Assembly (NCBI GenBank): GCA_963753125.1
Contig: CAVWAU010000006.1
Location: 77,413-141,412 of the forward strand
Reading direction: 5' to 3'
DNA from: an uncultured Chloroflexia bacterium
Lineage (GTDB): Bacteria; Chloroflexota; Limnocylindria; QHBO01
DNA length: 64,000 nt
In this document: piece after piece, positions 8,444 through 25,595 of the stretch
Layout of the letters: the number at the start of each line of letters is the position of its first letter
Numbering within the stretch: the stretch's first letter is position 1
The notes under the pieces: generated by a model
Seen by the model: the letters and a program-made list of their open reading frames with translations, nothing else
Told to the model about the DNA's origin: nothing
Databases searched by the model: none
Translations under genes and position numbers: made by a program

Positions 8444-8447
8444 CGGC

Positions 8448-9908
8448 CTAGAAGAGGCTGGCGGCGCTGACCTCGAGGAGGCGCAGGATGGCGCCGGGGA
8501 AGACCCCCAGCGCGATCACGCCCGCCACGGAGACGGCGAGGGCCACCGAGCCGAATGGATGGTTGTCGAGGGGCGCGGGCTCCGGCTCGGGATCGCGCAT
8601 GTACATGTAGACGATGACGCGCAGGTAGTAGAACGCGGCCAGCGCGGCGTTGAGGACGATCACCACCGCCAGCCAGACGAGGCCCGACTCGACCGTGGCG
8701 ATCAGGACGTAGAGCTTGGCGAAGAAGCCGACGGTCGGCGGGATGCCGGTCAGGCTCAGCATGAGCACCGCCATCGCCCCGGCGCGCCACGGCGCCCGCG
8801 AGGCGAGCCCGGCGAACGAGGCGAGGCCGCCGAAGCGGGTCGTGTCACGCTGGAGCATGGCCACCACCGCGAAGGCGGCGATGTTCATGACCGCGTAGCC
8901 GAGGACGTAGAAAAGGACCGACTGGATGCCCTGTGCCGCGGTCTCGGCGTCGGGCGCGGCCGCGTAGGCCGCCAGCCCGGCCATGATGTAGCCGGTGTGC
9001 GCGATGCTCGAGTAGGCGAGCATCCGCTTCACGTTGGTCTGGACGAGGGCCACGATGTTGCCGACCGTCATCGTCAGCACGGTCAGCACCAGGAAGATCG
9101 CCAGCCAGTCCGCTTTCAACGGGGCGAGGGCCTCGGCGAAGATCCGGATCAGAAGCGCGAAGGCGCCGATCTTCGGGCCGACCGACAGGAACCCGGTGAT
9201 CGGCGTCGGCGCGCCCTGGTAGGCGTCCGGGGTCCAGTAGTGGAACGGGACCGCCGCGATCTTGAAGGTGGCGCCGACGGTCAGGAAGCCTATGGCCACC
9301 AGGATGCCGGCGTTCATCTGCCCCTCGAGTGCCGCGGCGACGCCGTCGACGCTGGTCGTGCCGGTCAGCCCGTATATCCACGCCGCCCCGAACAGGAGGA
9401 TCGCGCTGGCGAACGAGCCGAGCAGGAAGTACTTCAGGCCGCCCTCGTTGCTGTACCGATCGGTCTTGTGGAGGCCGGTGAGCAGGTACGACGGCATCGT
9501 CATCAGCTCGAGGCCCAGGAACAGGGTGATGAAGTCGCTGCTCGAGGCGAGGACGCACATCCCGATCAGCGCGCTGATGAGGATCGTGTTGAACTCGCCG
9601 AGCGGGATGCGCCGCACGAGCAGGTAAGACGGCGCGAAGAGGGCGGAGAGGACACCGGTCACGATCGTCGCCCCCTTGATGAAGACCGACAGGTCGTCGA
9701 CGACGTAGTAGCCGTCGTAGATCGTCTCGTTCGTGCCCCACACCACGAAGCAGGCGACGCCGGCGATGAGCAGCCCGAACACCGTGAGCGGCGTGAGCAG
9801 CCACTTCGAGCGTCGCGGCAGGAAGAGGTCGACGGTGATGACCACCAACAGGAGGACCGTGAGGACCAGCTCCGGCAGCAGCGCTCCGAGGTCTTCCATC
9901 AGCTCCAT
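8448..9908 (-). CDS. nuoN: NADH-quinone oxidoreductase subunit N
   Basis: EGGLKYFLLG, FKIAAVPFHYWTPDAYQGAPTP, KRMLAYSSIAH, SLTGIPP. Confidence 0.97.
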   Translation of the reverse strand: MELMEDLGALLPELVLTVLLLVVITVDLFLPRRSKWLLTPLTVFGLLIAGVACFVVWGTNETIYDGYYVVDDLSVFIKGATIVTGVLSALFAPSYLLVRRIPLGEFNTILISALIGMCVLASSSDFITLFLGLELMTMPSYLLTGLHKTDRYSNEGGLKYFLLGSFASAILLFGAAWIYGLTGTTSVDGVAAALEGQMNAGILVAIGFLTVGATFKIAAVPFHYWTPDAYQGAPTPITGFLSVGPKIGAFALLIRIFAEALAPLKADWLAIFLVLTVLTMTVGNIVALVQTNVKRMLAYSSIAHTGYIMAGLAAYAAAPDAETAAQGIQSVLFYVLGYAVMNIAAFAVVAMLQRDTTRFGGLASFAGLASRAPWRAGAMAVLMLSLTGIPPTVGFFAKLYVLIATVESGLVWLAVVIVLNAALAAFYYLRVIVYMYMRDPEPEPAPLDNHPFGSVALAVSVAGVIALGVFPGAILRLLEVSAASLF

Positions 9909-9922
9909 CGGTCAGCCGCCCC

Positions 9923-11437
9923 TCACCACAGCGGCCCGAAGCCGGTCAGCCCGGCGCCGTTGACGGCCTCGACGATGCGGTCGACCGGCACCTCGATCAT
10001 CTCCAGCACCGGCCCCGGGTAGACCCCCAGCGCCACTACGAGCACGATGAGCGGCGAGAGCGACACCCACTCGCCGCGGCTCATGTCGCGCAGCGACGGC
10101 CAGAATCGGCGCATCCAGTCCGACGGCACCGTGAAGAAGGCGCGCTGGAACATCCACAGCATGTAGACCGCGCTGAGGATGACGGCGGTCATCGCCACGG
10201 CCGCCACCCAGCCGTTGTAGGCGAACGCGCCCAGCACGACCAGGAACTCACCGATGAACCCCGAGAGGCCGGGCAGCCCTATAGAGGCGAACGTGAAGAG
10301 GCCGAACATGGCGGCGTACGCAGGGACGCGCGCGTTGAGCCCGCCCATGTGCGCGATCTCGCGGTCGTGGGTCTGCTCGTAGATGATCCCGACCAGGAGG
10401 AACAGCGCCCCGGTCGTGATGCCGTGGCTGATCATCTGGAAGATCGCGCCCTGCAGGCCCTGCACGTTGAAGACGAAGGCGCCGAGCATCACGAAGCCCA
10501 TGTGACTGACGCTCGAGTAGGCGACCAGCTTCTTCATGTCCGGCTGCACCATCGCCACCAGCGCGCCGTAGATGATCGCGATGAGCGCCAGACCGATGAT
10601 GACCGGCGCGAACGTCGCCGACGCGTCGGGCAGCAGCGGTAGGTTATAGCGCAGGAACCCATAGCCGCCGAGCTTCAGAAGAACTCCCGCCAGGATGATC
10701 GAGCCGGCCGTTGGCGCCTCGACGTGGGCATCGGGCAGCCACGTGTGGAGCGGCCACATCGGCACCTTGATGGCGAACGCCAGGAAGAACGCGATGAAGG
10801 CGAGCGCCTGGAGCGTATCGGTGTAGGCGAAGCCTCTCAGTGCCTCGTAGCTGAACGTGAACTCGTTGCCGGCCGACGCGTACGCGATCGCCACCGCAAG
10901 GATCGCGACGAGCATCAGCAGCGAGCCGACCAGGGTGTAGATGACGAACTTCACCGTCGCATAGATGCGGGCCGGGCCGCCCCAGATGCCGATCATGAAG
11001 TACATCGGGAAGAGGCTGACTTCCCAGAAGACGTAGAACAGGAACAGGTCGAGGCTGACGAAGACGCCGAGCATGCCGACCATGAGCAGCAGCATCACGG
11101 CGTAGTAGGCCTTGATCTTGGTCTGGATCGGCTCCCAGCTGTAGACGATGGCCACCACGCTCAGCAGCGTGGTCAGGATCACGAGCACGACGCTGATGCC
11201 GTCGACGCCGAGCGTGTATCGCATCCCGAAGAAGTCGATCCACGGGAGGTCCTCGCGGAACTGGAACTCGGCGCCGCTCGGGTCGTAGCCGAGCAGCGCA
11301 AGGCTGAGCCCGAAGCTGATCAGCGCGGTGACGAGCGCGATCCAGCGGATGGCGGTGTGGGCGGTGCCCGGGACGAACAGCAGGAGGAGCGCGCCGAGCG
11401 CCGGCACGAAGACGATGGCGGAGAGGAGGGGCACCAC
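9923..11437 (-). CDS. nuoM: NADH-quinone oxidoreductase subunit M
   Basis: GTG 11437 overlaps the nuoL stop (TAGTG); FAIKVPMWPLHTWLPDAHVEAPT, LLKLGGYG, KKLVAYSSVSHMG. The ORF-track extension to 13258 is a shadow. Confidence 0.97.
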   Translation of the reverse strand: MVPLLSAIVFVPALGALLLLFVPGTAHTAIRWIALVTALISFGLSLALLGYDPSGAEFQFREDLPWIDFFGMRYTLGVDGISVVLVILTTLLSVVAIVYSWEPIQTKIKAYYAVMLLLMVGMLGVFVSLDLFLFYVFWEVSLFPMYFMIGIWGGPARIYATVKFVIYTLVGSLLMLVAILAVAIAYASAGNEFTFSYEALRGFAYTDTLQALAFIAFFLAFAIKVPMWPLHTWLPDAHVEAPTAGSIILAGVLLKLGGYGFLRYNLPLLPDASATFAPVIIGLALIAIIYGALVAMVQPDMKKLVAYSSVSHMGFVMLGAFVFNVQGLQGAIFQMISHGITTGALFLLVGIIYEQTHDREIAHMGGLNARVPAYAAMFGLFTFASIGLPGLSGFIGEFLVVLGAFAYNGWVAAVAMTAVILSAVYMLWMFQRAFFTVPSDWMRRFWPSLRDMSRGEWVSLSPLIVLVVALGVYPGPVLEMIEVPVDRIVEAVNGAGLTGFGPLW

Positions 11438-13638
11438 TAGCGCACCACCGTCGCGTACACGAGCAGCACGATCGCCAGCCCAGCGGCGATCCCCAGGCCG
11501 TAGTTCTCGACGTGCCCGGTCTGCACCTTGCGCAACCCGCCGCCGATCGTTCGCGCCAGCCAGCCGGTGCCGTTGACGATGCCGTCGATGACCCGAACGT
11601 CGAACCACCACAGTGCGTTCGCGACGATCACGCCGCCACGGGCGAAGACGAGCTGGTAGACGTCGTCGATGTAGTACTTGTTCAGGCTGGCGCGGTACAT
11701 CCCCGGCCCGAGACCCAGCGGGAAGCGCTCGATGAAGCGCGCCGGCAGCCCTGGTTCGCGAACGTAGAACCGATGTGCGAGCCAGACGCCGGCGACGGCC
11801 ACGAGCGCGCCCGCGGTGAGCAGCACCCCGCCGCTTCCGAGGAGCTGGAACTCGGGGTGATCGCCGTCGGCGATCGACCCGGGCAGGACGCCGGCATGCG
11901 CCTCCTCGGCGACGAGGAAGACCTCGTGGAGCCATTCGTGGATGAGCCCGGCCTCCGGCGGGATGCCGAGCAGCAGACCGATGAAGATCGTCGGCACGGC
12001 GAGGATGGCCAGCGGCGCGACCATGGTCGGGGCGCTCTCGTGGACGTGGTCCCACACCGCGCGCGGCCCGCGCCACTCGCCCCAGAAGGTCATGAAGATC
12101 ATCCGGAACGTGTAGAAGGCGGTCATCAGCGCGACGACCACGCCGACGATGTAGAAGACGAGATAGCCGCGGTTGAAGGCCTCGGCCAGGATCTCGTCCT
12201 TGCTGAAGAAGCCGGAGAAGATCGGGATGCCGGCGAGGGCCAGCGAGCCGATGACCATCGTGACGTAGGTCCAGCGCATCCGCGCGCGCAGGTTGCCCAT
12301 GTAGCGCATGTCCTGCTCGCCTCCGGCGCCGTGGATCACGGAGCCGGAGCCCATGAACAGCAGCCCCTTGAAGAAGCCATGGCTGACGAGGTGGAAGATC
12401 GCCGATGCGAACGCCCCGATCCCGAGCGCCATGAACATGTACGCCAGCTGGCTGACCGTCGAGTAGGCGAGGACCTTCTTGATGTCGTTCTGGGTCAGCG
12501 CGATGGCCGCGGCGAGGACGGCGGTGAAGGTGCCGATGATGGCGACCACCAACATGGCGGTGGGCGCCTCGGCGAAGATCGGGTTGGCGCGGGCGACCAT
12601 GTAGACGCCGGCGTTGACCATCGTGGCGGCGTGGATCAGCGCCGATACAGGGGTCGGGCCCTCCATGGCGTCCGGAAGCCAGACGTGGAGCGGGAACTGG
12701 GCGGACTTGCCGACGGCGCCGGCGAAGAGGAGGAGGGCGATGATCGTGACGGTGCCCTCGTCGAGCGTGCCGATCCGCTCGAAGACCTCGTGGAAGCTCA
12801 GCGTCCCGAGGTTGACCCAGATCATCATGATCCCGAGGCCGAACCCGAAGTCGCCGATCCGGTTGACGACGAAGGCCTTCTTGGCCGCCCCGGCCGCCGA
12901 GGGCTTCTTGTACCAGAAGCCGATGAGCGCGTAGCTGCACAGGCCGACCGCCTCCCAGCCGACGTACAGCATCAGGAAGTTGTCGCCCAGGATCAGCAGC
13001 AGCATGCTGAACATGAACAGGTTCAGGTAGGCGAAGAAGCGCCACAAGCCCCGGTCGCCGTCCATGTAGCCGATCGAGTAGACGTGGACGAGGAAGCCGA
13101 CCGTGCTGACGACGAGCAGCAGCATCGCGGTCAGCGAGTCCACCAGGAAGCTGACCTCGATGTTGAACGAGCCAGAGGCGATCCACTCGTAGACGGTCAC
13201 CTCGTGCTCGTTGCCGCCGAAGACAACGTCGGCGAAGACGACCATCGAGATGACCCACGTCAGGCCGACGAGCACGGTCGGGACGATCCAGGACCGATAG
13301 CGCGGCCGCTCCGCGCCCGGCGAAACGTGCCCGGCCTGGCCGAGCCCGTCGTTCAGCTCCGCCGGGATGACGCCGGCAGCGCCCTCGGCGTTGGAGAGGT
13401 CGTCGGAGTGGCCGGCATGCGGGCTCGTCGCGGCCTGCTCCTCCTCGGTCGGGACGGTGCGGAAGGCCGAGTCGTCGACCGGGCCGTGGCCGTGGGCGTC
13501 ATCGGTCTCGTGCTCTGCATCGTGGTCTTCGTGGCCGTGAACGGGGACGCGGTCGAGCCGCGGGCCGACGAGGACGGCGAAGAGGAACCCGATCAGGGGC
13601 AGCGCCGGGATGAGGGCGATCAGGAGGTCGATGGACAT
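11437..13638 (-). CDS. nuoL: NADH-quinone oxidoreductase subunit L with a long His/acidic insert after TM1
   Basis: GKSAQFPLHVWLPDAMEGPTPVSALIHAATMV, KKVLAYSTVSQL, HGFFKGLLF, SKDEIL. Confidence 0.97.
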   Translation of the reverse strand: MSIDLLIALIPALPLIGFLFAVLVGPRLDRVPVHGHEDHDAEHETDDAHGHGPVDDSAFRTVPTEEEQAATSPHAGHSDDLSNAEGAAGVIPAELNDGLGQAGHVSPGAERPRYRSWIVPTVLVGLTWVISMVVFADVVFGGNEHEVTVYEWIASGSFNIEVSFLVDSLTAMLLLVVSTVGFLVHVYSIGYMDGDRGLWRFFAYLNLFMFSMLLLILGDNFLMLYVGWEAVGLCSYALIGFWYKKPSAAGAAKKAFVVNRIGDFGFGLGIMMIWVNLGTLSFHEVFERIGTLDEGTVTIIALLLFAGAVGKSAQFPLHVWLPDAMEGPTPVSALIHAATMVNAGVYMVARANPIFAEAPTAMLVVAIIGTFTAVLAAAIALTQNDIKKVLAYSTVSQLAYMFMALGIGAFASAIFHLVSHGFFKGLLFMGSGSVIHGAGGEQDMRYMGNLRARMRWTYVTMVIGSLALAGIPIFSGFFSKDEILAEAFNRGYLVFYIVGVVVALMTAFYTFRMIFMTFWGEWRGPRAVWDHVHESAPTMVAPLAILAVPTIFIGLLLGIPPEAGLIHEWLHEVFLVAEEAHAGVLPGSIADGDHPEFQLLGSGGVLLTAGALVAVAGVWLAHRFYVREPGLPARFIERFPLGLGPGMYRASLNKYYIDDVYQLVFARGGVIVANALWWFDVRVIDGIVNGTGWLARTIGGGLRKVQTGHVENYGLGIAAGLAIVLLVYATVVR

Positions 13639-13645
13639 TCGGCCT

Positions 13646-13954
13646 CTATTCCTTCAGGTCGGCGTACTGGTCGACCTCGGCCGTCTGCCGGGTGCGGATG
13701 ATGGCGATGACCAGCGCCAGGCCGACCGTCACCTCGGCGGCGGCGACCGCCATGATCATCAGCGCGAAGACCGCGCCGGCGTTCGCGTCGCTCGGCGGCA
13801 GGTAGGCGTTGAACGCCACCAGGCTCAGGTTCACGGCGTTGAACATGAGCTCGATGCTGATGAGCATCAGGATCGCGTTGCGCCGCGCCATGAAGCCGAA
13901 CGCGCCGATCGCGAACAGCAGCGTCGAGACGATCAGGTAGCCCTCGAGGCCCAT
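13646..13954 (-). CDS. nuoK: NADH-quinone oxidoreductase subunit K
   Basis: RRNAILMLISIELMFNAVNL...VAAAEVTVGLAL. Confidence 0.97.
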   Translation of the reverse strand: MGLEGYLIVSTLLFAIGAFGFMARRNAILMLISIELMFNAVNLSLVAFNAYLPPSDANAGAVFALMIMAVAAAEVTVGLALVIAIIRTRQTAEVDQYADLKE

Positions 13955-13957
13955 CGG

Positions 13958-14467
13958 TCAGTTCGCCCGCTCGTCTTCTTCCGGCCGGCGGGCCAGGTAG
14001 ATGGCACCGATGATCGCCACCAGCAGCAGCAGGCTGATGATCTCGAACGGCAGCGCGAACTCGGTGAAGATGGCGGTGGCGATGTCCTCGACCGCAGCGG
14101 AGGCCGCCTGGGCGGCGGCGGGCCAATCGGTCTGGATGACGGCCCAGCCGACGAGACCGATGATGGCCAGCGAGATGACCGCGGCGATCGGCACCTGCCG
14201 ATGGAACGGCGCCGGCAGGTTCGCGTCACCGGCCTGGGTGAGCATGATCGCGAAGAGGATCAGGACGCTGATCGCGCCGAGGTAGATCAGCACCTGCGCG
14301 GCGGCCACGATCGGCGCGCCGAGCAGCGCATACATGCCGGCGAGCGACCCGAAACAGACCATCATCGCCACGGCCGAGTGGATGATGTTGCGCAGCGTGA
14401 CGACGGCGAGTCCGGCTCCCACGACACCGATGGCGAGCAGGAAGAAGAGGACGCTGGAGATGTCCAG
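13958..14467 (-). CDS. nuoJ: NADH-quinone oxidoreductase subunit J (probable CTG start)
   Basis: NIIHSA, QVLIYLGAISVLILFAIML, F.LPFEIISLLLLVAIIGA; TM1 needs the CTG at 14467 (SD GGGAG 9 nt upstream). Confidence 0.93.
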   Translation of the reverse strand: MDISSVLFFLLAIGVVGAGLAVVTLRNIIHSAVAMMVCFGSLAGMYALLGAPIVAAAQVLIYLGAISVLILFAIMLTQAGDANLPAPFHRQVPIAAVISLAIIGLVGWAVIQTDWPAAAQAASAAVEDIATAIFTEFALPFEIISLLLLVAIIGAIYLARRPEEDERAN

Positions 14468-14524: not shown

Positions 14525-14530
14525 ATTCTA
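14525..14530 (-). promoter_or_regulatory. -10 element (TAGAAT) of a separate nuoJKLMN promoter
   Basis: TAGAAT followed by a GC hairpin (CGAGCGC...GCGCTCG), then the SD and nuoJ start. Confidence 0.55.
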
Positions 14531-14600
14531 GCGTAGCGATCATTGAGGCTGCGGTGCCAGCACGGATGAAGGTTTCCGTGCGCTCGATTGTCATGTCATC

Positions 14601-16903: not shown

Positions 16904-16913
16904 GGTTCCCGGT

Positions 16914-16932
16914 GCTGAGGCGGCAACTCAGC
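16914..16932. terminator. hairpin between convergent genes
   Basis: GCTGAG-GCGGCAA-CTCAGC; no U-tract. Confidence 0.3.
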
Positions 16933-16976
16933 GGCGCGCGGCCGTCCAGCCCGTCAGGCCCGCCAGGCGCATCGGT

Positions 16977-19368
16977 CTAGCGGGTGGGTCGCTCCCGGTC
17001 GGACATCTCGAGGATGTCGAGCATGGGCAGGTCGCGCTGGTACTCGCTGAACTCGAACTCGGGGCCGCAGCGCAGGGCGTCGTACGGGCAGGCATCGGCG
17101 CAGATGCCGCAGAAGATGCAGCGCGACACGTCGAGCTGGTAGGTCTCGAGGATGCGCGGGCGCGGCATGAGTGCGCCGACCGGGCATGTCTCGGCGCATC
17201 GGCCACAGGAGACGCACGGCGTCTCGTTGAGGGAGACGAAGTCGGCGGTGGTGACGAGGGAGTCGAAGCCCTTGCCGATGAAGTCGTAGCAGCCGGCGCC
17301 GACGATGTCCTTGCAGACCTGGGCGCATCGGCCGCAGTCGATGCAGCGCGAGTAGTCGCGCAGGATGAACGAGTGCGTCTCGTCGCGGCCGTAGCCGTGG
17401 TTGACGCCGACGTACGGGTTGTCCTGGATCGAGCGCTCGTCGATCGCCATGTTCAGCGTCGTCTCGTACTCGATCGCCGCCTCGCGCAGGTCGCAGTGGC
17501 CGATCGCCTCGCACGTGCACTGCAGGCAGCGTGACGCCTCGGCCATGGCCTGGTCGCCGGTGTAGCCGAACTCGTACTCGTTGAAGTTCGTGCTGCGCTC
17601 CTCGGGGCCGAGCTTGCCCATGATCGCCTTGGGCTCCTTCACGTCATCGGTGAAGGGGACGATGGTCAGGAAGTTCGGCTGCGGCTCGGTGACGATGCGC
17701 CGGACCTGCGGGTCGTCGAGGTCGTGGCCGCGCAGCCAGTAATCCATGGCGTACGAGGCGCGGCGGCCCTCGCCGATGGCCTCGACCACGGTGGCGGCAC
17801 CGGTCCGGACGTCGCCGGAGGCGAAGACCTTGGGGACGTCGGTGCGGAAGATGTGCTCCTCCGACTCGAGCGTGCCGCGCCGCGAGACGACGAGCTTCGA
17901 GCGGATCTCCTCCGGCTCCGAGTCGATCCACGACAGCTCCGGTCCCTGGCCGATGGCGCCCAGCACGGTGTCGCACTCGACGATGAACTCGGTGCCCTCC
18001 ATCGGCTCCGGCCGGCGGCGGCCCTGCTCGTCGGGCGCGCCGAGCTTCATGCGCTGGAACTCGACGCCGGTGACCTTGTCCTTCTCGTCGGTGACGATCC
18101 GGACCGGGGCGGCCTGGAAGATGAGCCGCGCGCCCTCCTCGATGGCCTCGTGCGCCTCGTCGGCGGCGGGCATGTCCTTGAGGTCGCGGCGGTAGACGAG
18201 GGTCACCTCGGCCGCGCCCTGGCGCACCGAGGTCCGGGTGCAGTCGATGGCGGTGAAGCCGCCACCGATGACGACCACCCGCGCGCCCTTCAGCCGCGGC
18301 ACCGGGATGCCGCGGGTCGAGTTGTAGAGGTTCTCGAGCGCGTTGACGGTGCCCTGGGCGAACTCGCCGGGGATGCCGAGCTCGTTGGGCTTGTAGCAGC
18401 CGATGCCGATGTAGATCGCGTCGTAGTCGTCGATGATGTCGCCGATGTGGAAGTCGCGCCCGAGCCGCATGTTCGGCTTGAAGGTCGCGCCGAGCTCCCA
18501 GACGTGGTTGAGCTCGCGGTCCATCCAGCCCTTCGGCAGGCGGTACTGCGGGATGCCGTAGCGCAGCATGCCGCCCTGCTCGGGATCGGCCTCGAAGACG
18601 TCGCACTGGTGGCCGCGCAGCTGGAGGTAGTACGCGACGCTCATCCCGGCCGGGCCGGCACCGATGATCGCCACGCGGCGACCGGTCGGCGGCTCCTTCG
18701 GCCACGGGATCGGCGCCGGGGCATCCACCTCCAGGACGCGGTCGGCGCAGTACCGATGCGAGTCGCGGATGGCGATCGCGGTGTCGACCTCCTCGCGCCG
18801 GCAGTGGGTCTCGCACGGCGCGGGGCAGACGCGGCCGAGGATGGCCGGGAACGGCAGCGAGCGCTTCAGGATGCGCGTCGCCTCCTCCCAGTTGCCGAGG
18901 GTGTTCTGCTTCAGGTAGCCGGGGATGTCGACCCGGGTCGGGCACTTGAACTGGCACGGCGGCAGGCAGTAGGCGTCGTGGTCGCTGAAGATGAGCTCGA
19001 GGACCATGCGCCGGTTCTCGATGACGCGGTCGGAGTGGGTGGTGATGACCATCCCCTCTTCGATCGTCGTCCCGCACGAGATCGGGGTGTCGTCGCGCCC
19101 CTCGACCTCGACGGCGCAGATGCGGCACGCCCCGTACGGCGCCAGCTTCGGCTCGTAGCACAGCGTCGGGATCTCGATGCCGAGCACCCGGCAGGCCTGG
19201 AGGATGGTCTGTCCCTCCTCGGCCTCGACCTGCTGCCCGTTGATCGTGACCGTGATCTTCTGCGTGCCGGGCACCATCGGCCAGATCGGCGTGTAGTCGG
19301 TGACCTGCCCGTCGCCGCGTGCCGTTGCCGTTGCCGGTCGGGTGGCCGTTCGTCGTGCCGAAGCTCAT
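16977..19368 (-). CDS. NuoG-like [2Fe-2S]/[4Fe-4S] protein with inserted GltD/NfnB-type FAD/NADPH domain and C-terminal NuoI half (StnC-like::NuoI-C)
   Basis: C-x10-C-x2-C-x13-C, HDAYCLPPCQFKCP, GRVCPAPCETHC, GAGPAG, GGGFTA..YRR, SGD, EASRCLQCTC..C, two CxxCxxC motifs, then CIFCGICADACP. Unbroken ORF 16977-19277; the real start is probably ATG 19368 with a +1 frameshift near 19318. Confidence 0.88.
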
Positions 19369-19374
19369 CGGTCC

Positions 19375-20740
19375 CTACTCTAGCCCGGCCGGCTCGAGGC
19401 CGGGCAGCGGCTCCCGGAGCGGTGGCACCTCGGCGACGCGACAGGCGCCGGCCAGGCAGACGCCACGCTCCGCATGGGCGCGGTACTCGTCGGGGAAGCG
19501 CTCCATGGTGGTGAGGATCGGGTTCGGCGCCAGGCTCTCGAGCTTGCAGAGTGCGGTGTCGCTCATCTTGCTCGACAGCTCGCGCAGCATGACGAAGTCG
19601 TTCGGACGCGGGGTGGCGGCCAGGATGCGGTCGAGCGCCTCCACCAGCCGCTTCGTGCCGATGCGGCACGGCACGGCCTTGCCGCAGGCCTCTCTTGCGC
19701 TGAAGTCGACGAAGAAGCGCGCCGAGTCGACCATGCACGTAGCGGCATCGGTGACCAGGACCGATCCGGAGCCGATGATCGCGCCGGCCTTCTCGAGCGG
19801 CTCGTAGTCGTAGGCCAGGGTGAGCCGGCCGACGTCGATGGCGCCACCGCCGGGGCCGCCGACGAAGACCGCCTTCGTCGAGCCGGTCCCGCCGCCGGCC
19901 ATGCCGACGAGGTCGAGCAGGCTCGTGCCCAGCGGCACCTCGAGCAGCCCGGGCTCCATCACGCGGCCCATGACCGTCACGAGCTTCGTGCCCTTGCTCG
20001 CGTCGCTCCCAACCGAGGCGAACGCCTCCGGGGAGTGCGAGATGATCCAGGCCACGTGCGCCAGGGTCTCCGCGTTCTGGACGACCGTCGGTGCGCCCCA
20101 CAGGCCGGTCGTGGCCGGGTACGGCGGCCGGATCGCCGGCATGCCGCGATCGCCGGCCAGCGCGTGCAGCAGCGCGGTCTCCTCGCCGGCGACGTAGGCG
20201 CCGGAGCCCTCCCATACGCGACAGCTGGATGCTGGTGTCGGTGCCGAGCACCAGGTAGCCGGCCAGGTGCGCCTCGGTCGTCTCGCCGACCGCGGTTCGC
20301 AGCCGGTCGATGGCGTCGGTCCACTCGCGGCGCACGGCGACGATTGCCTCGCTCGCGCCCACCGCGTACGCCGCGATGAGGAGGCCCTCGAGGACGAGGT
20401 GCGGGTTGCCCTCGGCCAGCGCCCGGTCGCCGAGGGAGCTGGGATCGGCGCCCATGAGGTTGGCGACGACGATCCTGCGGTCGGTTTCGATGCCGCGTGC
20501 GACGCGCCACTTCTCGGCGGTCGGGAAGCCGGAGCCGCCGCGGCCGCGCAGGCCGGCTGCCTCGATCTCGTCGATCACGCCCTCCGGCGAGAGATGGGTG
20601 ACGGCGCGCTTCAGGCCGCCGTAGCCGCCATGCTCGCGGTAGCTGGCCAGGCTGCTCGGGTCGATCCGCCCGATGTCGGTCAGCACCCGGCGCTCGCCGG
20701 CGCCGAGGATGCGGATCTGGGGCGAGATCGTGCCGGCCAT
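19375..20740 (-). CDS. nuoF: NuoF/HydB-like flavoprotein subunit, degenerate; apparent +1 frameshift near 20220
   Basis: GLRGRGGSGFPTAEKW, GSGAYVAGEETAL, RPPYP, QNAETLA, IGSGSVLV, EACGKAVPCRIG, ALCKL; halves are in the 18911-20740 and 19375-20142 frames. Confidence 0.88.
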
Positions 20741-21582
20741 CAGCTGCGGGTGCTCGCCGTGGCGCGTGTCGCGGCGGCAACCCGCTCGCTGACGATGTGG
20801 CGAGCCTTGGCGGCATCGACCGGCCCGTAGACGAGGGTGTCGACGCGAATGGCCGGGCTGATCGCGCCCGCCCCGACGTCAGTCGCCAGCTCCAGGCTCC
20901 ACTGACCGTCGGGCGTCTCCTCGCCTGCGCGGATGCCGAGCTCCTCCTCGATGGCGGCGCGCACCGCCGGCCCGCCGGCGAAGCGGCACGCGGCGCAGTC
21001 GCAGACGGTGACGACGTGGCCGGCGGCGGGCAGAAGGCGGAAGCCGCCGAGGCCGGCGGCGCCGAAGACCTGCGCCCAGTGGATGCTCATCCGGTCGCTC
21101 ACCCGGCGCAGCGCGCGCTCGGGCAGGTAGCCGTATCGGTCCTCGATGGCCCGGAAGATGGCGACCAGCGCCTCCGGACGGCCGCCGAAGGCGTCGATCG
21201 TCTCGTCCACCCACGGCGTGTCGATCGCCTCGTCCCAGCGCGCCGGGTTGCGCATCGGTCTCGCCGGCTGGCCGGCGCGGCGGTATGCGTTGGCGTCCTT
21301 GCGCTCGTCGTAGATCTCCGGCATCCCGTAGCGGATCCGGTTGCCCCGCGAGTCGAAGCCGCTCATGTCGATGGCCTCGACCGGGCAGACCTGCGCGCAC
21401 TGGAAGCAGACCTCGCACTTGTGCTCGCCGAACGGGTCGTAGATGAGGTCGAGCCGGCCGCGCCATCGGTCGGGGATCGGCGGGCGCTCCTCGGGATACT
21501 GCCGCGTCACCTTCGGCGCGAAGAAGTTGCGGAAGGTGGTGACCATGCCCTTGGCGATGCCGACGCCCGGAAACGCCATCAA
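20740..21582 (-). CDS. fusion of NuoI N-terminal half and NuoE-like domain
   Basis: GMVTTFRNFFAPKVTRQYPEE...RWRGRL...CEVCFQCAQVCPVEAI (NuoI-N, one motif only), then RYGYLPERALRRVS...VCDCAAC...LGIRAGEETPDGQWSLE (NuoE). Confidence 0.88.
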   Translation of the reverse strand: MMAFPGVGIAKGMVTTFRNFFAPKVTRQYPEERPPIPDRWRGRLDLIYDPFGEHKCEVCFQCAQVCPVEAIDMSGFDSRGNRIRYGMPEIYDERKDANAYRRAGQPARPMRNPARWDEAIDTPWVDETIDAFGGRPEALVAIFRAIEDRYGYLPERALRRVSDRMSIHWAQVFGAAGLGGFRLLPAAGHVVTVCDCAACRFAGGPAVRAAIEEELGIRAGEETPDGQWSLELATDVGAGAISPAIRVDTLVYGPVDAAKARHIVSERVAAATRATASTRS

Positions 21583-21592
21583 TGCACCCCGC

Positions 21593-22603
21593 TCACAGGT
21601 CGAAGACCACCACCGCGATGGCGGTGAGGAACAGGTTCACCAGCGCCAGCGGCAGGAGCACCTTCCAGGCCAAGCCCATGAGCTGGTCGACACGGACCCG
21701 CGGCAGCGTGCCGCGCAGCCAGACCGCGATGGCCACGAAAATGTAGGTCTTCAGGAAGAACCAGAAGATCCCGTACACCGTCCCCGCGAAACCGCCGAGC
21801 TGGGCGGGCAGCGGCCACGGCGCCAGCCAGCCGCCGAAGAAGAGCGTGATGAGGATGCCGCTCATGATGAACAGCGCGACGTACTCGGCGAAGAAGAAGA
21901 ACCCGAAGCGCATCCCCGAGTACTCGGTGAAGGGCCCCGCCACCAGCTCCGAGTCGGCCTCGACCATGTCGAACGGAGTGCGGTTGACCTCGGCCAGGCT
22001 GGCGACGTAGAAGATGGCGAGGCCGACCGGCTGCCACCACAGCAACCAGCCGTTCTCGAGCTGCCAGGCGATGAGCTCGCTGAAGCTGAGCGTGCCGGCC
22101 AGCACCACCGCGCCCACGATTGAGAGGGTGAGCGGGATCTCGTAGCTCACCATCTGCGCCGCTGATCGCAGGCCACCCAGGAGCGAGTACTTGTTGTAGC
22201 TCGCCCAGCCGGCCACCAGCAGCCCGACCACCGAGAGGCCGAGCACGGCGAAGAAGTAGACGATGCCGATGTTGAAGTCCGCAGCGATCGCGCCGGGCGC
22301 GAAGGGGATCACGATCATGCTCATCGCGGCGGCCATGTAGACCATCCACGGGGCGAGCGTGAATGTGCCGCGATCGGCCTGGTCGGGAACGGTGTCCTCC
22401 TTGGCCAGCACCTTGAAGCCGTGGATCGTGCTCTGGAACATCCCGCGCGGGCCGATCCGGTTCGGCCCGTAGCGCAGCGCCAGCTGCGCGATGATCTTCA
22501 TCTCCATCTGGATGATGACGAACGCGGTCGGCACGGTGAGCAGCAAGATCAGGGTCGTGGCCAGGACGAAGCGGCCGAGGCCGAGCAGCAGCTCCCAGTC
22601 CAT
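21593..22603 (-). CDS. nuoH: NADH-quinone oxidoreductase subunit H
   Basis: RYGPNRIGPRG, KYSLLGGLRSAAQMVSYE, AEVNRTPFDMVEADSEL, LPRVRVDQLM..WK. Confidence 0.97.
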   Translation of the reverse strand: MDWELLLGLGRFVLATTLILLLTVPTAFVIIQMEMKIIAQLALRYGPNRIGPRGMFQSTIHGFKVLAKEDTVPDQADRGTFTLAPWMVYMAAAMSMIVIPFAPGAIAADFNIGIVYFFAVLGLSVVGLLVAGWASYNKYSLLGGLRSAAQMVSYEIPLTLSIVGAVVLAGTLSFSELIAWQLENGWLLWWQPVGLAIFYVASLAEVNRTPFDMVEADSELVAGPFTEYSGMRFGFFFFAEYVALFIMSGILITLFFGGWLAPWPLPAQLGGFAGTVYGIFWFFLKTYIFVAIAVWLRGTLPRVRVDQLMGLAWKVLLPLALVNLFLTAIAVVVFDL

Positions 22604-22606
22604 CGG

Positions 22607-23890
22607 TTACTTGTCCACGCCGCCCATGACCGGGTCGAAGCTGGCCATGACCGCCATGAGGTCGGCGATGAGGCGGCGCGGCATGATCTTCGGCAGCGCC
22701 TGAAGGCTGATGAACGAGGGGTCGCGCATCCGGAACCGATACGGGTTCGGCCCGCCGTCGCTGATGGCGTAGATGCTGTAGAGGCCGCGCGGCGACTCGA
22801 CCGCCGCGTAGGCCCGCCCCGGCTTCGGCCGGATGATGCCGGGCACCTGGGCCTGCACCGGCCCGTGCGGCATCTTGTCCATGATCTGGTCGATGAGGTG
22901 GATGCTCTGCTTGATCTCGGCGATGCGCTGGAGATACCGCGCGTACGAGTCGCCTGATTCCTGGGTGATCACGTCGAACTCGAGCTCGTCGTAGATCGAG
23001 TACGGACGCGCCTTGCGCACGTCGAAGGGCACGCCAGATGCGCGCAGGTTCGGGCCGGTCACGCCGAGGCTGATGGCCTGGTCTCCGGTCAGCACGCCCA
23101 TCCCCTTCGTTCGAGCCGTGAAGATCTCGTTCTCGGTGATCATCCACTCGTTCATCTCGATGTTCTTCAGCACCCCGCTTCGCCACGTGCCGAGGCGGCT
23201 GAGGAACTCGTCGTTGACGTCCCAGTTCACGCCGCCGACGCGGAAGAAGTTGAAGAGCATGCGCTGGCCGCTGATGGCCGACAGCATCTCGACGATCTCG
23301 TCGCGGTTGATGAAGCTGTACAGGATCGGAGTCAGCCCGCCCATGTCGAGCGCCAGGAAGCCCATCATCAGGCTGTGGCTGAAGACGCGGTTCAGCTCGA
23401 CGACCAGCGCCCGGATGTACTCGGCCCGCTCCGGGGCCCTGATGCCATACAGCTTCTCGAAGGCGATCGCCGGCGCGTGCTCGTTGTGCATGGTGGCGAG
23501 GTAGTCCATGGGGTCGACGTACGTGAGCACGGTCGTGTAGGTCGCGTTCTCGCACAGCTTCTCGATCCCGCGGTGGAGATAGCCGAGGACGGGGTCGACC
23601 TCGATGATCACCTCGCCGCGGACCTTCACCACCAGACGCATGACGCCATGGGTCGAGGGATGCTGCGGGCCGAGGTTGAGCAGCATCTCGCCTTCGTCGA
23701 GGCTATAGACCTCGCGCTCGCGGTCGGTCTGCGGCGGCCGGTCGGGGATGCCGACCTGCTCGAACCCGGCGAATTCGGCCGACTCTCGGTGGACCGGCCG
23801 CAGCCCGGCGACGGCCCGCAGGCGGTCCTCCTCGGCGCGGTCGAGATCGATGGGGTCCGGGATGCGGACCTCGGGGTCGACCTTCGTCAT
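22607..23890 (-). CDS. nuoD: NADH-quinone oxidoreductase subunit D
   Basis: NLGPQHPSTHGVMRL, GYLHRGIEK, TGPNLRASG, GDSYARY, ESPRG, DPVMGGVDK. Confidence 0.97.
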   Translation of the reverse strand: MTKVDPEVRIPDPIDLDRAEEDRLRAVAGLRPVHRESAEFAGFEQVGIPDRPPQTDREREVYSLDEGEMLLNLGPQHPSTHGVMRLVVKVRGEVIIEVDPVLGYLHRGIEKLCENATYTTVLTYVDPMDYLATMHNEHAPAIAFEKLYGIRAPERAEYIRALVVELNRVFSHSLMMGFLALDMGGLTPILYSFINRDEIVEMLSAISGQRMLFNFFRVGGVNWDVNDEFLSRLGTWRSGVLKNIEMNEWMITENEIFTARTKGMGVLTGDQAISLGVTGPNLRASGVPFDVRKARPYSIYDELEFDVITQESGDSYARYLQRIAEIKQSIHLIDQIMDKMPHGPVQAQVPGIIRPKPGRAYAAVESPRGLYSIYAISDGGPNPYRFRMRDPSFISLQALPKIMPRRLIADLMAVMASFDPVMGGVDK

Positions 23891-24513
23891 CGCGGGCGGC
23901 TCTTGTCGGCGTCGGTCTCGCCGGCCTCGACGGTGGCGGGGTGCTGTTCGGCGGGAACGCCCACCGCAGGGGCGTCACGGAAGCGGGTCAGGTCCCACGT
24001 CTCGGGGCGCTCGAGCGGGTTCACGCCGTGGGCCGACGAGTCGGCGGCGTCGTCGGGCAGGATGAAGTCCCTGCGCTGCGGGAAGGACCGATAGTCGGGC
24101 GACATGTAGATCCGGCGCAGGTCGCGGTTGCCCTCGAAGACGATGCCCATCATGTCGTACATCTCGCGCTCGTGGAACATCGCGCCCTCCCACATGTGGG
24201 TGATGGTGCGGATGCGCGGGTCGGCGCGATCGACGCGGGCGCGGACGCGGAGCCAGGCCGGGTGCTTCCAGCTGAAGAGGTGGTAGACGACCTCGAAGTG
24301 CGCGTCGACGCCGTAGTCGACGGCGGCCTCGTCGGCGAGCATGAAGAATGCGAGGTCCTCGTCGTCGCGCAGCGTCGTCAGCACCTCGACGTTGGTTGCG
24401 CCGTCGATGGTGAACTCGACCGTGTCCTCGTCGGTCCACAGGTCGCGCAGGTCGGCGGACAGGCGCTCGTTGAGAAGCCTCACGAGCGCCCCCGCGGCCA
24501 CAGGCGTGGTCAG
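23887..24513 (-). CDS. nuoC: NADH-quinone oxidoreductase subunit C (probable CTG start; alternative GTG 24501)
   Basis: [29 protein letters not shown]...FPQRRDF; SD GGAG 7 nt before the CTG, which overlaps the nuoB TGA. Confidence 0.93.
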
Positions 24514-25178
24514 CGGACGTCTCCTTCCCAGCGCATGCGCTGCGGACCGCGATCGACGAAGGTGGGCCACTGGCCGCGGCGTTCCTTGACCAGCTCGTGG
24601 AGCTTCATCATCCCGTAGATGAGGCCCTCGGGGCGCGGCGGGCAGCCGGGAACGTAGACGTCGACGGGCATGACGCGGTCGACGCCCTGCACCACCGAGT
24701 AGGAGCGCTTGAACCGGCCGCCGGAGGTGGTGCAGGTGCCCATCGCCACGCACCACTTCGGCTCGGGCATCTGCTCCCAGAGGCGCACGAGCGGCCCGGC
24801 CATCTTCGTGGTCAGCGTCCCGGCGACGATCAGCACATCGGCCTGTCGTGGCGAGGCACGGAACGGGAACATCCCGAATCGGTCGATGTCGTTGACGCTG
24901 GTGGCGGTCGACATCATCTCGATCGCGCAGCAGCTCAGGCCGGACAGGAGCGGCCACAGCGAGTTGGCGCGGATGAGGTCGAGGACGTAGTCGGCCTTGG
25001 TCGGGATCACCTCGAGCAGGCCGTGGAAGCCGCCCTGTGGGTGCTCCTCCATGCCGAACTCGCGGAGGAGGGCGTCCTCGGCCCCGGCGTCCGGAATGAT
25101 GATCGGGCCGTCGCCGTCATCGGTCTTGGCCAGCTCTGTGCTGGTGGTGGTGGGGTCGTTCGGTCGGTCTACTGCCAT
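24510..25178 (-). CDS. nuoB: NADH-quinone oxidoreductase subunit B
   Basis: [39 protein letters not shown] (N2 ligands intact). Confidence 0.97.
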
Positions 25179-25528
25179 CGCAGGTCACCCTTCTTCCACG
25201 CGTAGAACTCGCCGAACATGAGGATCGCAAGGAAGATGCCGATGAGCACGATCCCCTGGAACTCCAGCGCCCGCACGGTGATGGCCCACAGGTAGACGAA
25301 GATGATCTCCACGTCGAAGGCCACGAACAGCAGGGCGTACAGGTAGAAGGCCAGCCCGAAGCGGCTCCACGTGTCACCGATGGTGTCCACGCCCGACTCG
25401 TACGGCAGGCCCTTCTGGGGGCGACGCCGCCGATGGGTGATCAGCCAGCTGAACAGGATCGTGCCGAAGACGAAGGTCGTCGCCGCGAACCCGAAGCCGA
25501 TGACGTAGAGCAGTCCGGTGTGATCCAT
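25169..25528 (-). CDS. nuoA: NADH-quinone oxidoreductase subunit A
   Basis: [29 protein letters not shown]; SD GGAG before ATG 25528. Confidence 0.96.
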
Positions 25529-25595
25529 TTCCACTCCGGTACCACGCGCGGTATCCACGCGGGCCACGCCGGCCCGCCGATTGGTTCAGTCTCGT

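What the first reader, a model, noticed from the sequence alone, without database searches (positions are those of the whole stretch)
16977..21582. Complex I with nuoI split in two and an entire NuoE/F/G-like input module inserted inside it
Seen in sequence: the order is nuoA-B-C-D-H, then a gene starting with a textbook NuoI N-terminus (VTRQYPEE..RWRG) but only one ferredoxin motif (CEVCFQCAQVCP, about 21382-21417), fused to a NuoE-like domain. A NuoF-like gene follows. Then comes a NuoG-like gene whose last 63 aa (16977-17168) are the missing NuoI C-half (YQLDVSRCIFCGICADACP.DAL...EFE....R), and then nuoJ-N. There is no intact nuoI. Established knowledge: NuoI is a 2x[4Fe-4S] ferredoxin (N6a/N6b) in which each cluster takes three Cys from one motif and one from the other, and ABCDHIJKLMN is the order of 11-subunit 'headless' complex I operons. 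Inference: a dehydrogenase cassette was acquired in-frame between the two NuoI motifs. The two clusters would then be ligated in trans by two polypeptides, clamping the new head onto the Q-module. I do not recall this architecture being described.
Basis: partly seen in the sequence, partly recalled or inferred. Interest (0 to 1): 0.95.

Follow-up and report, generated by a model that had tools for sequence, protein, structure and literature searches.

The report
Complex I with a split NuoI
In this soil or freshwater Chloroflexota bacterium (Ca. Limnocylindria) the respiratory complex I gene nuoI is cut in two, each half is fused to one end of a three-gene NADPH/NADH flavoprotein module related to soluble transhydrogenases, and I found no paper describing this conserved layout.

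Summary
On the minus strand the order is nuoA-B-C-D-H, P1, P2, P3, a 2.4-kb plus-strand insert, then nuoJ-K-L-M-N.

- **P1:** NuoI model positions 1-72 plus a NuoE-like domain.
- **P2:** NuoF/HydB-like.
- **P3:** [2Fe-2S], a GltD-type FAD/NADPH domain, 4Fe-4S motifs, then NuoI positions 71-112.

**Conservation.** Of 195 high-quality genomes of the class, 191 carry the P1 fusion and only 3 carry an intact NuoI. All eight NuoI cysteines are invariant. The same split occurs in about 70 Thermoleophilia (Actinomycetota) genomes.

**Origin of the module.** P1-P3 are closest to NfnABC/StnABC transhydrogenases, not to NuoEFG. The NuoI C-half replaces StnC's dead formate-dehydrogenase-like domain.

**Cofactors.** In Limnocylindria the NuoE cluster ligands are lost, a NuoF FMN-site Asp is lost, and the second N3 cysteine is often lost. 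The NADPH/FAD site is invariant.

**Best reading.** A proton-pumping complex I whose N6a/N6b clusters are built from two polypeptides and which is fed mainly by NADPH.

**New here.** This assembly has two single-base insertions, in P2 and at the start of P3. They are probably long-read errors.

I found no published description. Earlier agents of this scan reported the same layout about 45 times.

The parts
25169..25567 (-). nuoA
   Evidence: 99% identical to the nuoA (PF00507) called in relative L012.
24510..25178 (-). nuoB, with the N2 cluster cysteines CC...C...CP present
   Evidence: 95% identical to the nuoB of L012. Sequence read: [21 protein letters not shown].
23887..24570 (-). nuoC
   Evidence: 87% identical to the nuoC (PF00329) of L012 over residues 1-227.
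22607..23890 (-). nuoD. It has no NiFe-binding cysteines (GPQHPSTHG; C-terminus FDPVMGGVDK).
   Evidence: Complex1_49kDa in the relatives.
21593..22603 (-). nuoH
   Evidence: 96% identical to the nuoH (PF00146) of L012.
20740..21582 (-). P1: fusion of the NuoI N-terminal half with a NuoE-like domain (280 aa from TTG; relatives start at the ATG at 21579)
   Evidence: The top 120 listed homologues are 273-286 aa long and 78-96% identical.
21331..21549 (-). NuoI N-half (TIGR01971 positions 1-72): amphipathic N-terminus, YPEE, RWRG, and the first 4Fe-4S motif
   Evidence: It aligns to E. coli NuoI residues 23-86 and plant TYKY residues 24-91.
21382..21417 (-). First NuoI motif, CEVCFQCAQVCP
   Evidence: C55, C58, C61, C65 and P66 are invariant in 18 sequences from four families of the class.
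20788..21207 (-). NuoE-like domain. The second Cys pair of the [2Fe-2S] site is lost (TDVGAG).
   Evidence: PF01257 match, E 2.8e-22. The loss is class-wide, and the whole thioredoxin-like part is deleted in family f2 and in some f3 genomes.
19375..20740 (-). P2: NuoF/HydB-like flavoprotein. It is interrupted here by a 1-nt insertion near 20220 and is intact (454-457 aa) in relatives.
   Evidence: dN/dS is 0.137 before the shift and 0.103 after it.
16977..19368 (-). P3: StnC/NfnA-like protein ending in the NuoI C-half. The true ATG is at 19368, a 1-nt insertion lies near 19318, and an internal ATG lies at 19277.
19032..19262 (-). N-terminal [2Fe-2S] domain of P3 (NuoG/HydA N-terminus type)
   Evidence: PF13510 match, E 5.3e-21.
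17727..18965 (-). GltD/NfnB-type domain of P3: two 4Fe-4S clusters, FAD site and NADPH site (GxGPAG, GGMLRYGIP, VYRR)
   Evidence: PF14691, PF07992 and TIGR01318 matches. These motifs are invariant in 21 sequences.
17031..17156 (-). NuoI C-half (TIGR01971 positions 71-112), including the second motif CIFCGICADACP at 17085-17120 and the EFEF..Y.R tail
   Evidence: C720, C723, C726, C730 and P731 are invariant in 21 sequences, including Thermoleophilia.
13958..14422 (-). nuoJ
   Evidence: PF00499 match.
13646..13954 (-). nuoK
   Evidence: PF00420 match.
11437..13638 (-). nuoL
   Evidence: PF00662 and PF00361 matches.
9923..11620 (-). nuoM (the start is approximate and overlaps the end of the nuoL ORF)
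   Evidence: PF00361 match. Frame change relative to L012 at 11622.
8448..9908 (-). nuoN
   Evidence: PF00361 match.

Best explanation
This locus encodes the organism's only respiratory complex I. An ancestral 11-subunit-type operon (A-B-C-D-H-I-J-K-L-M-N) took up a three-gene NfnABC/StnABC-type flavoprotein operon inside nuoI, between its two 4Fe-4S motifs.

**Shown**
- The NuoI N-half is made as the N-terminus of the NuoE-like subunit P1. That half comprises the membrane-proximal helix, the YPEE/RxRG region and motif 1.
- The NuoI C-half (motif 2 and tail) is made as the C-terminus of the StnC-like subunit P3. There it replaces StnC's inactive formate-dehydrogenase-like domain.

**Inferred**
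- The two halves re-form the 2x[4Fe-4S] ferredoxin fold. Each of N6a and N6b then takes three Cys from one chain and one from the other.
- This both completes the wire to N2 in NuoB and staples the new head onto the Q-module.
- Electrons enter mainly from NADPH at the invariant GltD-type FAD site of P3. They run through P3's 4Fe-4S chain to N6a/N6b, then N2, then quinone, driving the L/M/N proton pumps.
- In Limnocylindria the bifurcating parts of the Nfn module have been stripped. The HydB end domains and the NuoE 2Fe-2S ligands are gone, an FMN-site Asp is replaced, and the second N3 Cys is often lost. P1's NuoE part and P2 are therefore probably scaffold, or at most a weak second (NADH) entry.
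- The two single-base insertions in this window are most likely assembly errors.
For: **Domain boundaries.** They are complementary: NuoI positions 1-72 on P1 and 71-112 on P3.

**Synteny.** The layout is the same in independent assemblies.

**Class-wide tally.** The P1 fusion is in 191 of 195 high-quality genomes and in 49 of 49 genera. An intact NuoI over the cut-off is in only 3 of 195, against 7 of 14 control genomes.

**Distribution.** No such fusion was found in the Chloroflexota genomes sampled outside the class, among 301 searched. The same split is present in about 70 Thermoleophilia species genomes.

**Conservation.** All eight NuoI Cys plus both Pro are invariant. dN/dS is 0.07-0.15 for P1, P2 and P3.

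**Family f2.** It encodes B-D-P1-P2-P3 at one locus and A-C-H-J-K-L-M-N at another, and most f2 genomes sampled have no other NuoI (G039 and G344 have one).

**Origin of the module.**
- P3 residues 8-730 align to NfnA 9bov_A residues 4-699 (E 1e-166) and to StnC 8oh5_C.
- P2 aligns to NfnB/StnB (1e-126).
- The NuoE part of P1 aligns to HydC/StnA.
- In StnC a side branch of clusters leads to the dead FdhF domain (PMC10482914). That is exactly the domain the NuoI C-half replaces.

**Cofactor sites.** The NADPH/FAD motifs of P3 are invariant. The NuoE second Cys pair is lost class-wide. In P2 the Asp of the NADE motif is lost class-wide, and the second N3 Cys is lost in f1 and most of f3.

**PntB.** It is present in 22 of 25 relatives.
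Against: **No direct evidence of assembly.** There is no structure, EPR or proteomics. AlphaFold2 monomers gave pLDDT below 50 for both NuoI halves, so fold completion could not be examined.

**P2 may still be active.**
- It is under purifying selection.
- It keeps the GRGGxGFPTxxKW and GEETAL motifs.
- In f2 and in L014 it keeps all four N3 Cys.

An active NADH site therefore cannot be excluded.

**A cis alternative exists on paper.** The last two motifs of P3 have ferredoxin-like spacing (20 residues) and could pair with each other.

Confidence: 0.72

Rival explanations
1. The architecture and the trans-assembled NuoI are as in the best explanation, but P2 still binds FMN and oxidises NADH. 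The enzyme would then be a dual NADH + NADPH:quinone oxidoreductase, or it would also equilibrate the two pools as a membrane-bound transhydrogenase.
For: - dN/dS of P2 is 0.10-0.14.
- The FMN glycine loop and the GEETAL motif are largely kept.
- N3 has all four Cys in family f2 and in L014.
- The Thermoleophilia version keeps a complete HydB-type core and the NuoE cluster.
Against: - The FMN-site Asp of the NADE motif is replaced (by Met, Tyr or Ile) in all 17 intact Limnocylindria P2 sequences read; the window's own frameshifted P2 shows the same NLMG in its upstream frame.
- The second N3 Cys is Ala or Thr in f1 and most of f3.
- The NuoE cluster ligands are lost, or the whole domain is deleted.

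All of these point to loss of redox function in this part.
Confidence: 0.28
2. The NuoI halves do not re-form one ferredoxin fold. P3's last two motifs (CVSCGRCAETCP and CIFCGICADACP) make an ordinary 2x[4Fe-4S] domain in cis, and P1's single motif holds a cluster with another fourth ligand or none.
For: - The 20-residue spacing between the two P3 motifs is typical of clostridial ferredoxins.
- The 82-residue C-terminus of P3 aligns as a unit to polyferredoxins, and to both motifs of E. coli NuoI.
Against: - In the close homologues NfnA and StnC, the motif CVSCGRCAETCP pairs with the preceding CIDCGRCAQVC motif, which is also invariant here. Cis pairing would leave that motif orphaned instead.
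- P1's motif, including its CP cysteine, is invariant over 27-30% overall identity to family f2. That is hard to explain if the cluster is incomplete.
- The HMM boundaries 1-72 and 71-112 are exactly complementary.
Confidence: 0.1
3. In this particular strain the frameshifts are real. P2 is a fresh pseudogene and P3 starts at the internal ATG at 19277, so the complex works without its NuoF-like subunit.
For: - Two uncompensated 1-nt insertions relative to L012 and L010 lie at about 20220 and 19318.
- P3 keeps a conserved internal Met (MVPGT) after the shift.
- The cofactor sites of P2 look degenerate.
Against: - P2 is intact in every other type-1 locus read except L030 (G049), which is itself split by frame shifts.
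- dN/dS is equally low on both sides of the shift.
- The same MAG contains contig C2, which has about one indel per 100 bp. That points to an error-prone long-read assembly.
- Both insertions create a CGCG context.
Confidence: 0.12
4. The complex runs physiologically in reverse. Quinol plus proton-motive force reduce NADP+ at the GltD site for biosynthesis.
For: Complex I is reversible (established knowledge). The head carries an NADP(H) site.
Against: - It is the only complex I in about 98% of the high-quality genomes sampled from a class of heterotrophs.
- PntAB is already present for NADPH supply.
- No lithotrophic context was seen in the window.
Confidence: 0.05

Closest known systems
Canonical 14-subunit complex I (NuoA-N; T. 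thermophilus Nqo1-14, E. coli Nuo) and the 11-subunit 'headless' form
   Same: - The Q-module subunits (NuoB with the N2 cysteines, NuoC, non-hydrogenase NuoD) are all present, apart from NuoI being split.
- The P-module subunits (A, H, J, K, L, M, N) are all present in the usual order.
- NuoI sequence hallmarks and all eight Cys are present.
   Different: - NuoI is on two polypeptides.
- The input module sits inside nuoI rather than between nuoD and nuoH.
- It is Nfn/Stn-derived rather than NuoEFG.
- It carries an extra FAD/NADPH domain.
- The N1a ligands are lost.
NfnABC / StnABC (Bfu-family electron-bifurcating transhydrogenases; PDB 9bov, 8oh5, 9n5u; PMC10482914)
   Same: - P3 residues 8-730 align to NfnA/StnC residues 4-700 ([2Fe-2S], GltD FAD/NADPH domain, 4Fe-4S chain).
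- P2 aligns to NfnB/StnB.
- The NuoE part of P1 aligns to NfnC/StnA.
- The gene order C-B-A is the same.
   Different: - It is membrane-bound through NuoI.
- StnC's C-terminal FdhF-like domain is replaced by the NuoI C-half.
- In Limnocylindria, P2 lacks the N-terminal 2Fe-2S domain and the C-terminal 2x[4Fe-4S] domain that define the bifurcating core.
- In Limnocylindria, the NuoE-like cluster ligands are gone.
Predicted 'Nuo-Bfu' complex I of Geobacter, Deferribacteres, Planctomycetes and Nitrospirae (Schut et al. 2022, PMC9304861)
   Same: It is a complex I whose NADH module is a Bfu-type module encoded in the middle of the nuo cluster.
   Different: As described in that paper, it has the normal E-F-G position. 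No GltD/NADPH domain and no split of NuoI are mentioned. It occurs in other phyla.
Mbx-like complexes of Thermotoga and proteobacteria in which a gltD-related flavoprotein stands in place of NuoI (Degli Esposti 2015, PMC4758237)
   Same: A GltD-type NAD(P)H flavoprotein is attached directly to a complex-I-like Q-module.
   Different: There the NuoI homologue is said to be substituted. Here NuoI is kept, but split and fused. The complex here is a bona fide nuo operon with a non-hydrogenase NuoD.

Membership tests
Respiratory complex I (Nuo/NDH-1) | All seven membrane subunits A, H, J, K, L, M, N are present | tested here: met
   Pfam and BLAST assignments in the window. Family f2 has them at a second locus.
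Respiratory complex I (Nuo/NDH-1) | Q-module: NuoB with the four N2 cysteines, NuoC, and NuoD without NiFe ligands | tested here: met
   Sequences read ([21 protein letters not shown]; NuoD GPQHPSTHG and C-terminus without Cys). PF01058 and PF00346 matches.
Respiratory complex I (Nuo/NDH-1) | NuoI supplying two 4Fe-4S clusters (N6a, N6b) from eight Cys | tested here: inconclusive
   All eight Cys are present and invariant, but they lie on two chains. Assembly in trans was not testable: the AlphaFold2 monomers were low-confidence there.
Respiratory complex I (Nuo/NDH-1) | NAD(P)H:quinone oxidoreduction coupled to proton pumping | not testable with these tools
   This needs membranes or purified enzyme.
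NuoI (NCBIfam TIGR01971) | A single polypeptide reaching the curated cut-off of 113 bits over both motifs | tested here: not met
   P1 scores 58 bits over positions 1-72 and P3 scores 56 bits over positions 71-112. No hit over the cut-off exists in the window's own genome.
Bfu family / Nfn-Bfu / StnABC | BfuA/StnC-type subunit with [2Fe-2S], an inserted GltD FAD/NADPH domain and a 4Fe-4S chain | tested here: met
   E 1e-166 to 9bov_A and 1e-146 to 8oh5_C over about 700 residues. PRK12814 match, E 4.6e-164.
Bfu family / Nfn-Bfu / StnABC | BfuB core with an extra N-terminal [2Fe-2S] and a C-terminal 2x[4Fe-4S] (clusters B2-B5; Schut 2022) | tested here: not met
   P2 in relatives is 454-457 aa and aligns only to residues 99-526 of the 584-aa NfnB. 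These domains are present in the Thermoleophilia version.
Bfu family / Nfn-Bfu / StnABC | BfuC/StnA [2Fe-2S] cluster with four Cys | tested here: not met
   The second Cys pair is replaced (TDVGAG) here, and it is lost or the domain deleted in all 18 class sequences.
Bfu family / Nfn-Bfu / StnABC | Soluble enzyme with a C-terminal FdhF-like domain on StnC | tested here: not met
   The alignment to StnC/NfnA stops at about residue 700 of about 1175. The NuoI C-half follows instead.

The most novel reading that the evidence does not exclude
Limnocylindria, an abundant soil and freshwater class, and a Thermoleophilia lineage may respire with a previously unrecognised class of complex I.

- Its dehydrogenase head was acquired independently of NuoEFG, by in-frame insertion of an Nfn/Stn transhydrogenase operon into nuoI.
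- Clusters N6a and N6b are each ligated by two different polypeptides.
- That would make it a natural split 2x[4Fe-4S] ferredoxin that serves as both wire and docking clamp.
- In Limnocylindria the enzyme would be a proton-pumping NADPH:quinone oxidoreductase.
- In Thermoleophilia, which keep the full Bfu core, it could couple NADH, NADPH and ferredoxin to quinone reduction.
Probability: 0.55. Interest if true: 0.9.

Novelty: new variant of a known kind. Interest (0 to 1): 0.82.

Why it matters
**Evolution of complex I.** Textbooks hold that complex I gained its NADH module once (NuoEFG), and that its core Fe-S subunits are single polypeptides. Here a second, independent way of putting a nucleotide-oxidising head on the 11-subunit core seems to exist. 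It is fixed in a whole class of common environmental bacteria and in part of a second phylum.

**What would follow if the trans-ligated N6a/N6b clusters are real:**
- It would be a natural example of a split ferredoxin fold used as an assembly clamp. That is of interest for complex I assembly, for Fe-S protein engineering and for modular evolution of redox enzymes.
- If NADPH is the donor, energy budgets and redox balancing in these organisms would differ from current metabolic reconstructions. Those reconstructions annotate the genes simply as NuoE/F and glutamate synthase small subunit.

Tried and rejected

**Structure prediction.**
- AlphaFold2 monomers of P1 and P3 used 18- and 21-row alignments.
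- They gave good models only for the NuoE-like, [2Fe-2S] and GltD parts.
- Both NuoI halves and the 4Fe-4S region had pLDDT below 50.
- No conclusion on cis versus trans pairing was possible. I did not run fold searches on these models.
- No multimer prediction is available.

**Second copy on contig C2.** I first took it for a paralogue. It is collinear with C6 over 83 kb of its 100 kb, at 71-88% identity, with about one gap per 100 bp. It is therefore a co-binned relative of poor sequence quality, not a duplicate operon.

**Extra antiporter-like subunit.** I first labelled an extra subunit 'L2'. It is simply NuoM, and the next gene is NuoN. The ORF after that is a GT20 glycosyltransferase.

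**Trees.** NuoD and P3 trees were built to ask whether the Thermoleophilia and Limnocylindria forms share one origin. Three deep clades appeared, but the root and the position of a canonical NuoD outgroup were unresolved.

**Literature.** Six searches found no description of a split NuoI. The nearest ideas are Nuo-Bfu (2022) and the gltD-for-NuoI Mbx-like complexes (2015).

Full report
**What is in the window.**

The window has about 70% G+C. It is C6:77413-141412 of a six-contig, 1.9-Mb MAG that is 62% complete. Close homologues of its proteins are labelled Candidatus Limnocylindria, a class of Chloroflexota.

All genes of interest lie on the minus strand. The order is:
- nuoA (25169-25567), nuoB (24510-25178), nuoC (about 23887-24570), nuoD (22607-23890), nuoH (21593-22603)
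- P1 (20740-21582), P2 (19375-20740), P3 (16977-19368)
- a 2.4-kb insert with plus-strand ORFs
- nuoJ (13958-14422), nuoK (13646-13954), nuoL (11437-13638), nuoM (9923 to about 11620), nuoN (8448-9908)

**Check of the observation.**

P1 (280 aa):
- Residues 12-84 match NuoI (TIGR01971) positions 1-72 (E 6.8e-16).
- Residues 126-265 match the NuoE-type thioredoxin-like [2Fe-2S] domain (PF01257, 2.8e-22).
- It has a single CxxCxxCxxxCP motif (CEVCFQCAQVCP, 21382-21417).

P3:
- Residues 6-658 match PRK12814 ([2Fe-2S] + GltD-type FAD/NADPH + 4Fe-4S; E 4.6e-164).
- Residues 708-749 match NuoI positions 71-112 (2.6e-15).
- The NuoI part includes CIFCGICADACP and the EFEF..Y.R tail typical of NuoI.

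The two NuoI matches meet at the same model position, which chance does not explain. No NuoI hit over the curated cut-off exists in the window's own genome.

*Frameshifts.*
- The NuoF-like gene is not one open frame here. The N-part runs in the 18911-20740 ORF up to about 20213, and the C-part is the 19375-20142 ORF.
- Against the closest relative L012 (90% nucleotide identity), the window has one extra base near 20220.
- A second extra base near 19318 lies just after P3's true ATG at 19368.
- These are the only two uncompensated single-base insertions in coding sequence over 17 kb.

*Why they look like errors.*
- P2 is intact (454-457 aa) in relatives L010, L011 and L012.
- dN/dS between the window and L012 is 0.137 upstream and 0.103 downstream of the shift. 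That is similar to P3 (0.154), and nuoD is 0.067.
- Contig C2 of the same MAG is collinear with C6 over 83 kb of its 100 kb, at 71-88% identity, with about one gap per 100 bp. It is a co-binned relative from a noisy long-read assembly, and it carries the same split layout.

I therefore read both insertions as probable assembly errors.

**Is it real and conserved?**

*Homologues of P1.* The 120 best hits listed are 273-286 aa long and 78-96% identical. They come from NCBI, JGI, ENA and Logan assemblies and are annotated only as 'NAD(P)H-dependent oxidoreductase subunit E'. Independent contigs show A-B-C-D-H-P1-P2-P3-J-K-L-M.

*Among 41 relatives.* The two NuoI halves lie about 4.3 kb apart in 40 genomes.

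*Among 195 genomes of the class at 90% or more completeness and 5% or less contamination.*

| Feature | Genomes |
|---|---|
| P1 fusion | 191 of 195 (49 of 49 genera) |
| Intact NuoI | 3 of 195 |

For comparison, 7 of 14 control genomes have an intact NuoI over the cut-off. One of the three exceptions, G039, has an additional canonical 14-subunit operon (L028).

*Family f2.* The genes are divided into B-D-P1-P2-P3 at one locus and A-C-H-J-K-L-M-N at another. The split NuoI again serves as the only NuoI there.

*Outside the class.* No such fusion was found in the genomes sampled from other classes, among 301 Chloroflexota genomes searched. A profile search of 1.8 billion representatives found more distant full-length fusions. 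A scan of species genomes placed one type in about 70 Thermoleophilia/Actinomycetota MAGs with the same operon order.

*Conservation of the ligands.* The four Cys and the Pro of each NuoI motif are invariant in every sequence aligned. That holds for 18 P1 sequences and 21 P3 sequences, down to 27% identity for P1.

**What the inserted module is.**

It is not NuoEFG.
- P3 residues 8-730 align end to end with residues 4-699 of NfnA (9bov_A, E 1e-166), with StnC of Sporomusa ovata (8oh5_C, 1e-146) and with an archaeal NfnA (9n5u_A).
- P2 is closest to NfnB/StnB/HydB (1e-126 to 1e-107), ahead of Nqo1 (1e-81).
- The NuoE part of P1 is closest to HydC, StnA and NfnC.

The Stn structure paper (PMC10482914) describes two routes in StnC:
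- a path from NADPH to FAD, through clusters C7, C6, C5, C4 and C3, to StnB;
- a side branch (C2, C1) leading into a catalytically dead FdhF-like C-terminal domain.

In P3 that FdhF-like domain is absent, and the NuoI C-half follows the last StnC-type motif after 20 residues. By homology, the side branch that leads nowhere in Stn would here lead into N6a/N6b. This step is inference.

**State of the cofactor sites.**

*P3.* The FAD and NADPH motifs are invariant, including the VYRR strand typical of NADPH-specific GltD/NfnB proteins. So are all the Cys motifs.

*P1.* The NuoE-like domain keeps the helical part that binds the F subunit. It has lost the second Cys pair of the [2Fe-2S] site in the whole class. 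The thioredoxin-like part is deleted altogether in f2 and in some f3 genomes.

*P2.*
- It lacks the N- and C-terminal Fe-S domains of bifurcating HydB/StnB.
- It has Met, Tyr or Ile in place of the Asp of the NADE motif in all Limnocylindria sequences.
- The second N3 Cys is lost in f1 and most of f3, but kept in f2 and L014.
- It keeps the FMN glycine loop and the GEETAL motif.

*Thermoleophilia.* These genomes keep the intact NuoE cluster and a full HydB-type P2 of about 600 aa.

This agrees with notes from other readers of this genome and of other genomes. I re-tested those notes on my own alignments.

**Mechanism proposed.**

*Shown.* This is a complete complex I gene set with NuoI encoded as two fusion halves. 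It is conserved, under purifying selection, and usually has no alternative NuoI.

*Inferred.*
- The halves rebuild the ferredoxin fold, and each cluster takes three Cys from one chain and one from the other.
- This wires P3's Fe-S chain to N2 and clamps the head to the Q-module.
- NADPH is the main donor, through the GltD-type FAD.
- The P1-NuoE/P2 pair is largely structural in Limnocylindria.

PntB is present in 22 of 25 relatives. That would allow NADH to feed an NADPH-driven chain, but it is only circumstantial.

**Rivals.**
- An active NADH site in P2, giving a dual-donor enzyme.
- Cis pairing of P3's last two motifs.
- A real P2 pseudogene in this strain.
- Reverse operation.

**Comparison with the literature.**

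Six full-text searches found no description of a split NuoI. The nearest published ideas are:
- the predicted Nuo-Bfu complexes of other phyla, which have the normal gene position and no split (PMC9304861);
- Mbx-like complexes in which a gltD-type flavoprotein stands in place of NuoI (PMC4758237).

Within this scan the same architecture has been reported about 45 times in at least 40 genomes, with the same reading. Those notes are not independent evidence. They do show that this window is one more member of a recurrent, apparently unpublished, architecture.

**Verdict.**

I rate it a new variant of a known kind (complex I) and of high interest. The claims still untested are trans-ligation, donor specificity and the status of the two frameshifts.

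Noticed in passing
window 20205-20230 and 19300-19330: Two single-base insertions relative to close relatives break P2 and the first 17 codons of P3. Both create a CGCG context. They are probably long-read or basecalling errors, but this is unverified.
   Followed up: partly
G000 contig C2 (L009 = C2:44000-63900) versus C6:41.6-141.3 kb: C2 is collinear with the window's contig over 83 kb of its 100 kb. Identity is 71-88%, with about one gap per 100 bp. It is a co-binned related strain of poor sequence quality, and it carries the same split-nuoI operon riddled with frameshifts.
   Followed up: yes
window 14530-16970: A 2.4-kb insert lies between P3 and nuoJ and carries plus-strand ORFs. One is an ECF sigma-factor region-2 fragment (14601-14939), and two have no Pfam match (15513-16124, 16305-16766). 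The insert is absent in L012. L010 has two unrelated opposite-strand genes at the same place.
   Followed up: partly
window about 11437-11622; L012 15502-19224: In L012, nuoL and nuoM form one 1240-aa ORF because of a 1-nt difference at window position 11622. In the window, L010, L013, L029 and L030 they are two frames that overlap by about 180 nt. It is unclear which state is real.
   Followed up: partly
L022-L027 and L031, L032 (family f2 genomes): In one family of the class the complex I genes sit at two loci: B-D-P1-P2-P3 and A-C-H-J-K-L-M-N. P1 there lacks the whole thioredoxin-like part of NuoE.
   Followed up: yes
L095 (Actinomycetes MAG, CAVXDR010000005.1) 7573-11273: This is a variant of the Thermoleophilia-type operon. 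P2 looks strongly degenerate. In P3 the NADPH-binding part of the GltD domain is replaced by a 2x[4Fe-4S] ferredoxin-like insert (CTGCGLCLRRCP...CIRCGNCRRVC).
   Followed up: no
G039:C21:80000-99000 (L028); also G336 and G344: Three of 195 high-quality class genomes carry an intact NuoI. In G039 it lies in a canonical 14-subunit nuo operon on the same contig as, and about 18 kb from, the split-NuoI B-D-P1-P2-P3 locus (L027); the loci in G336 and G344 were not read.
   Followed up: partly
window 6926-8443: The ORF directly after nuoN is a family-20 glycosyltransferase (trehalose-6-phosphate synthase type), not a nuo gene.
   Followed up: yes
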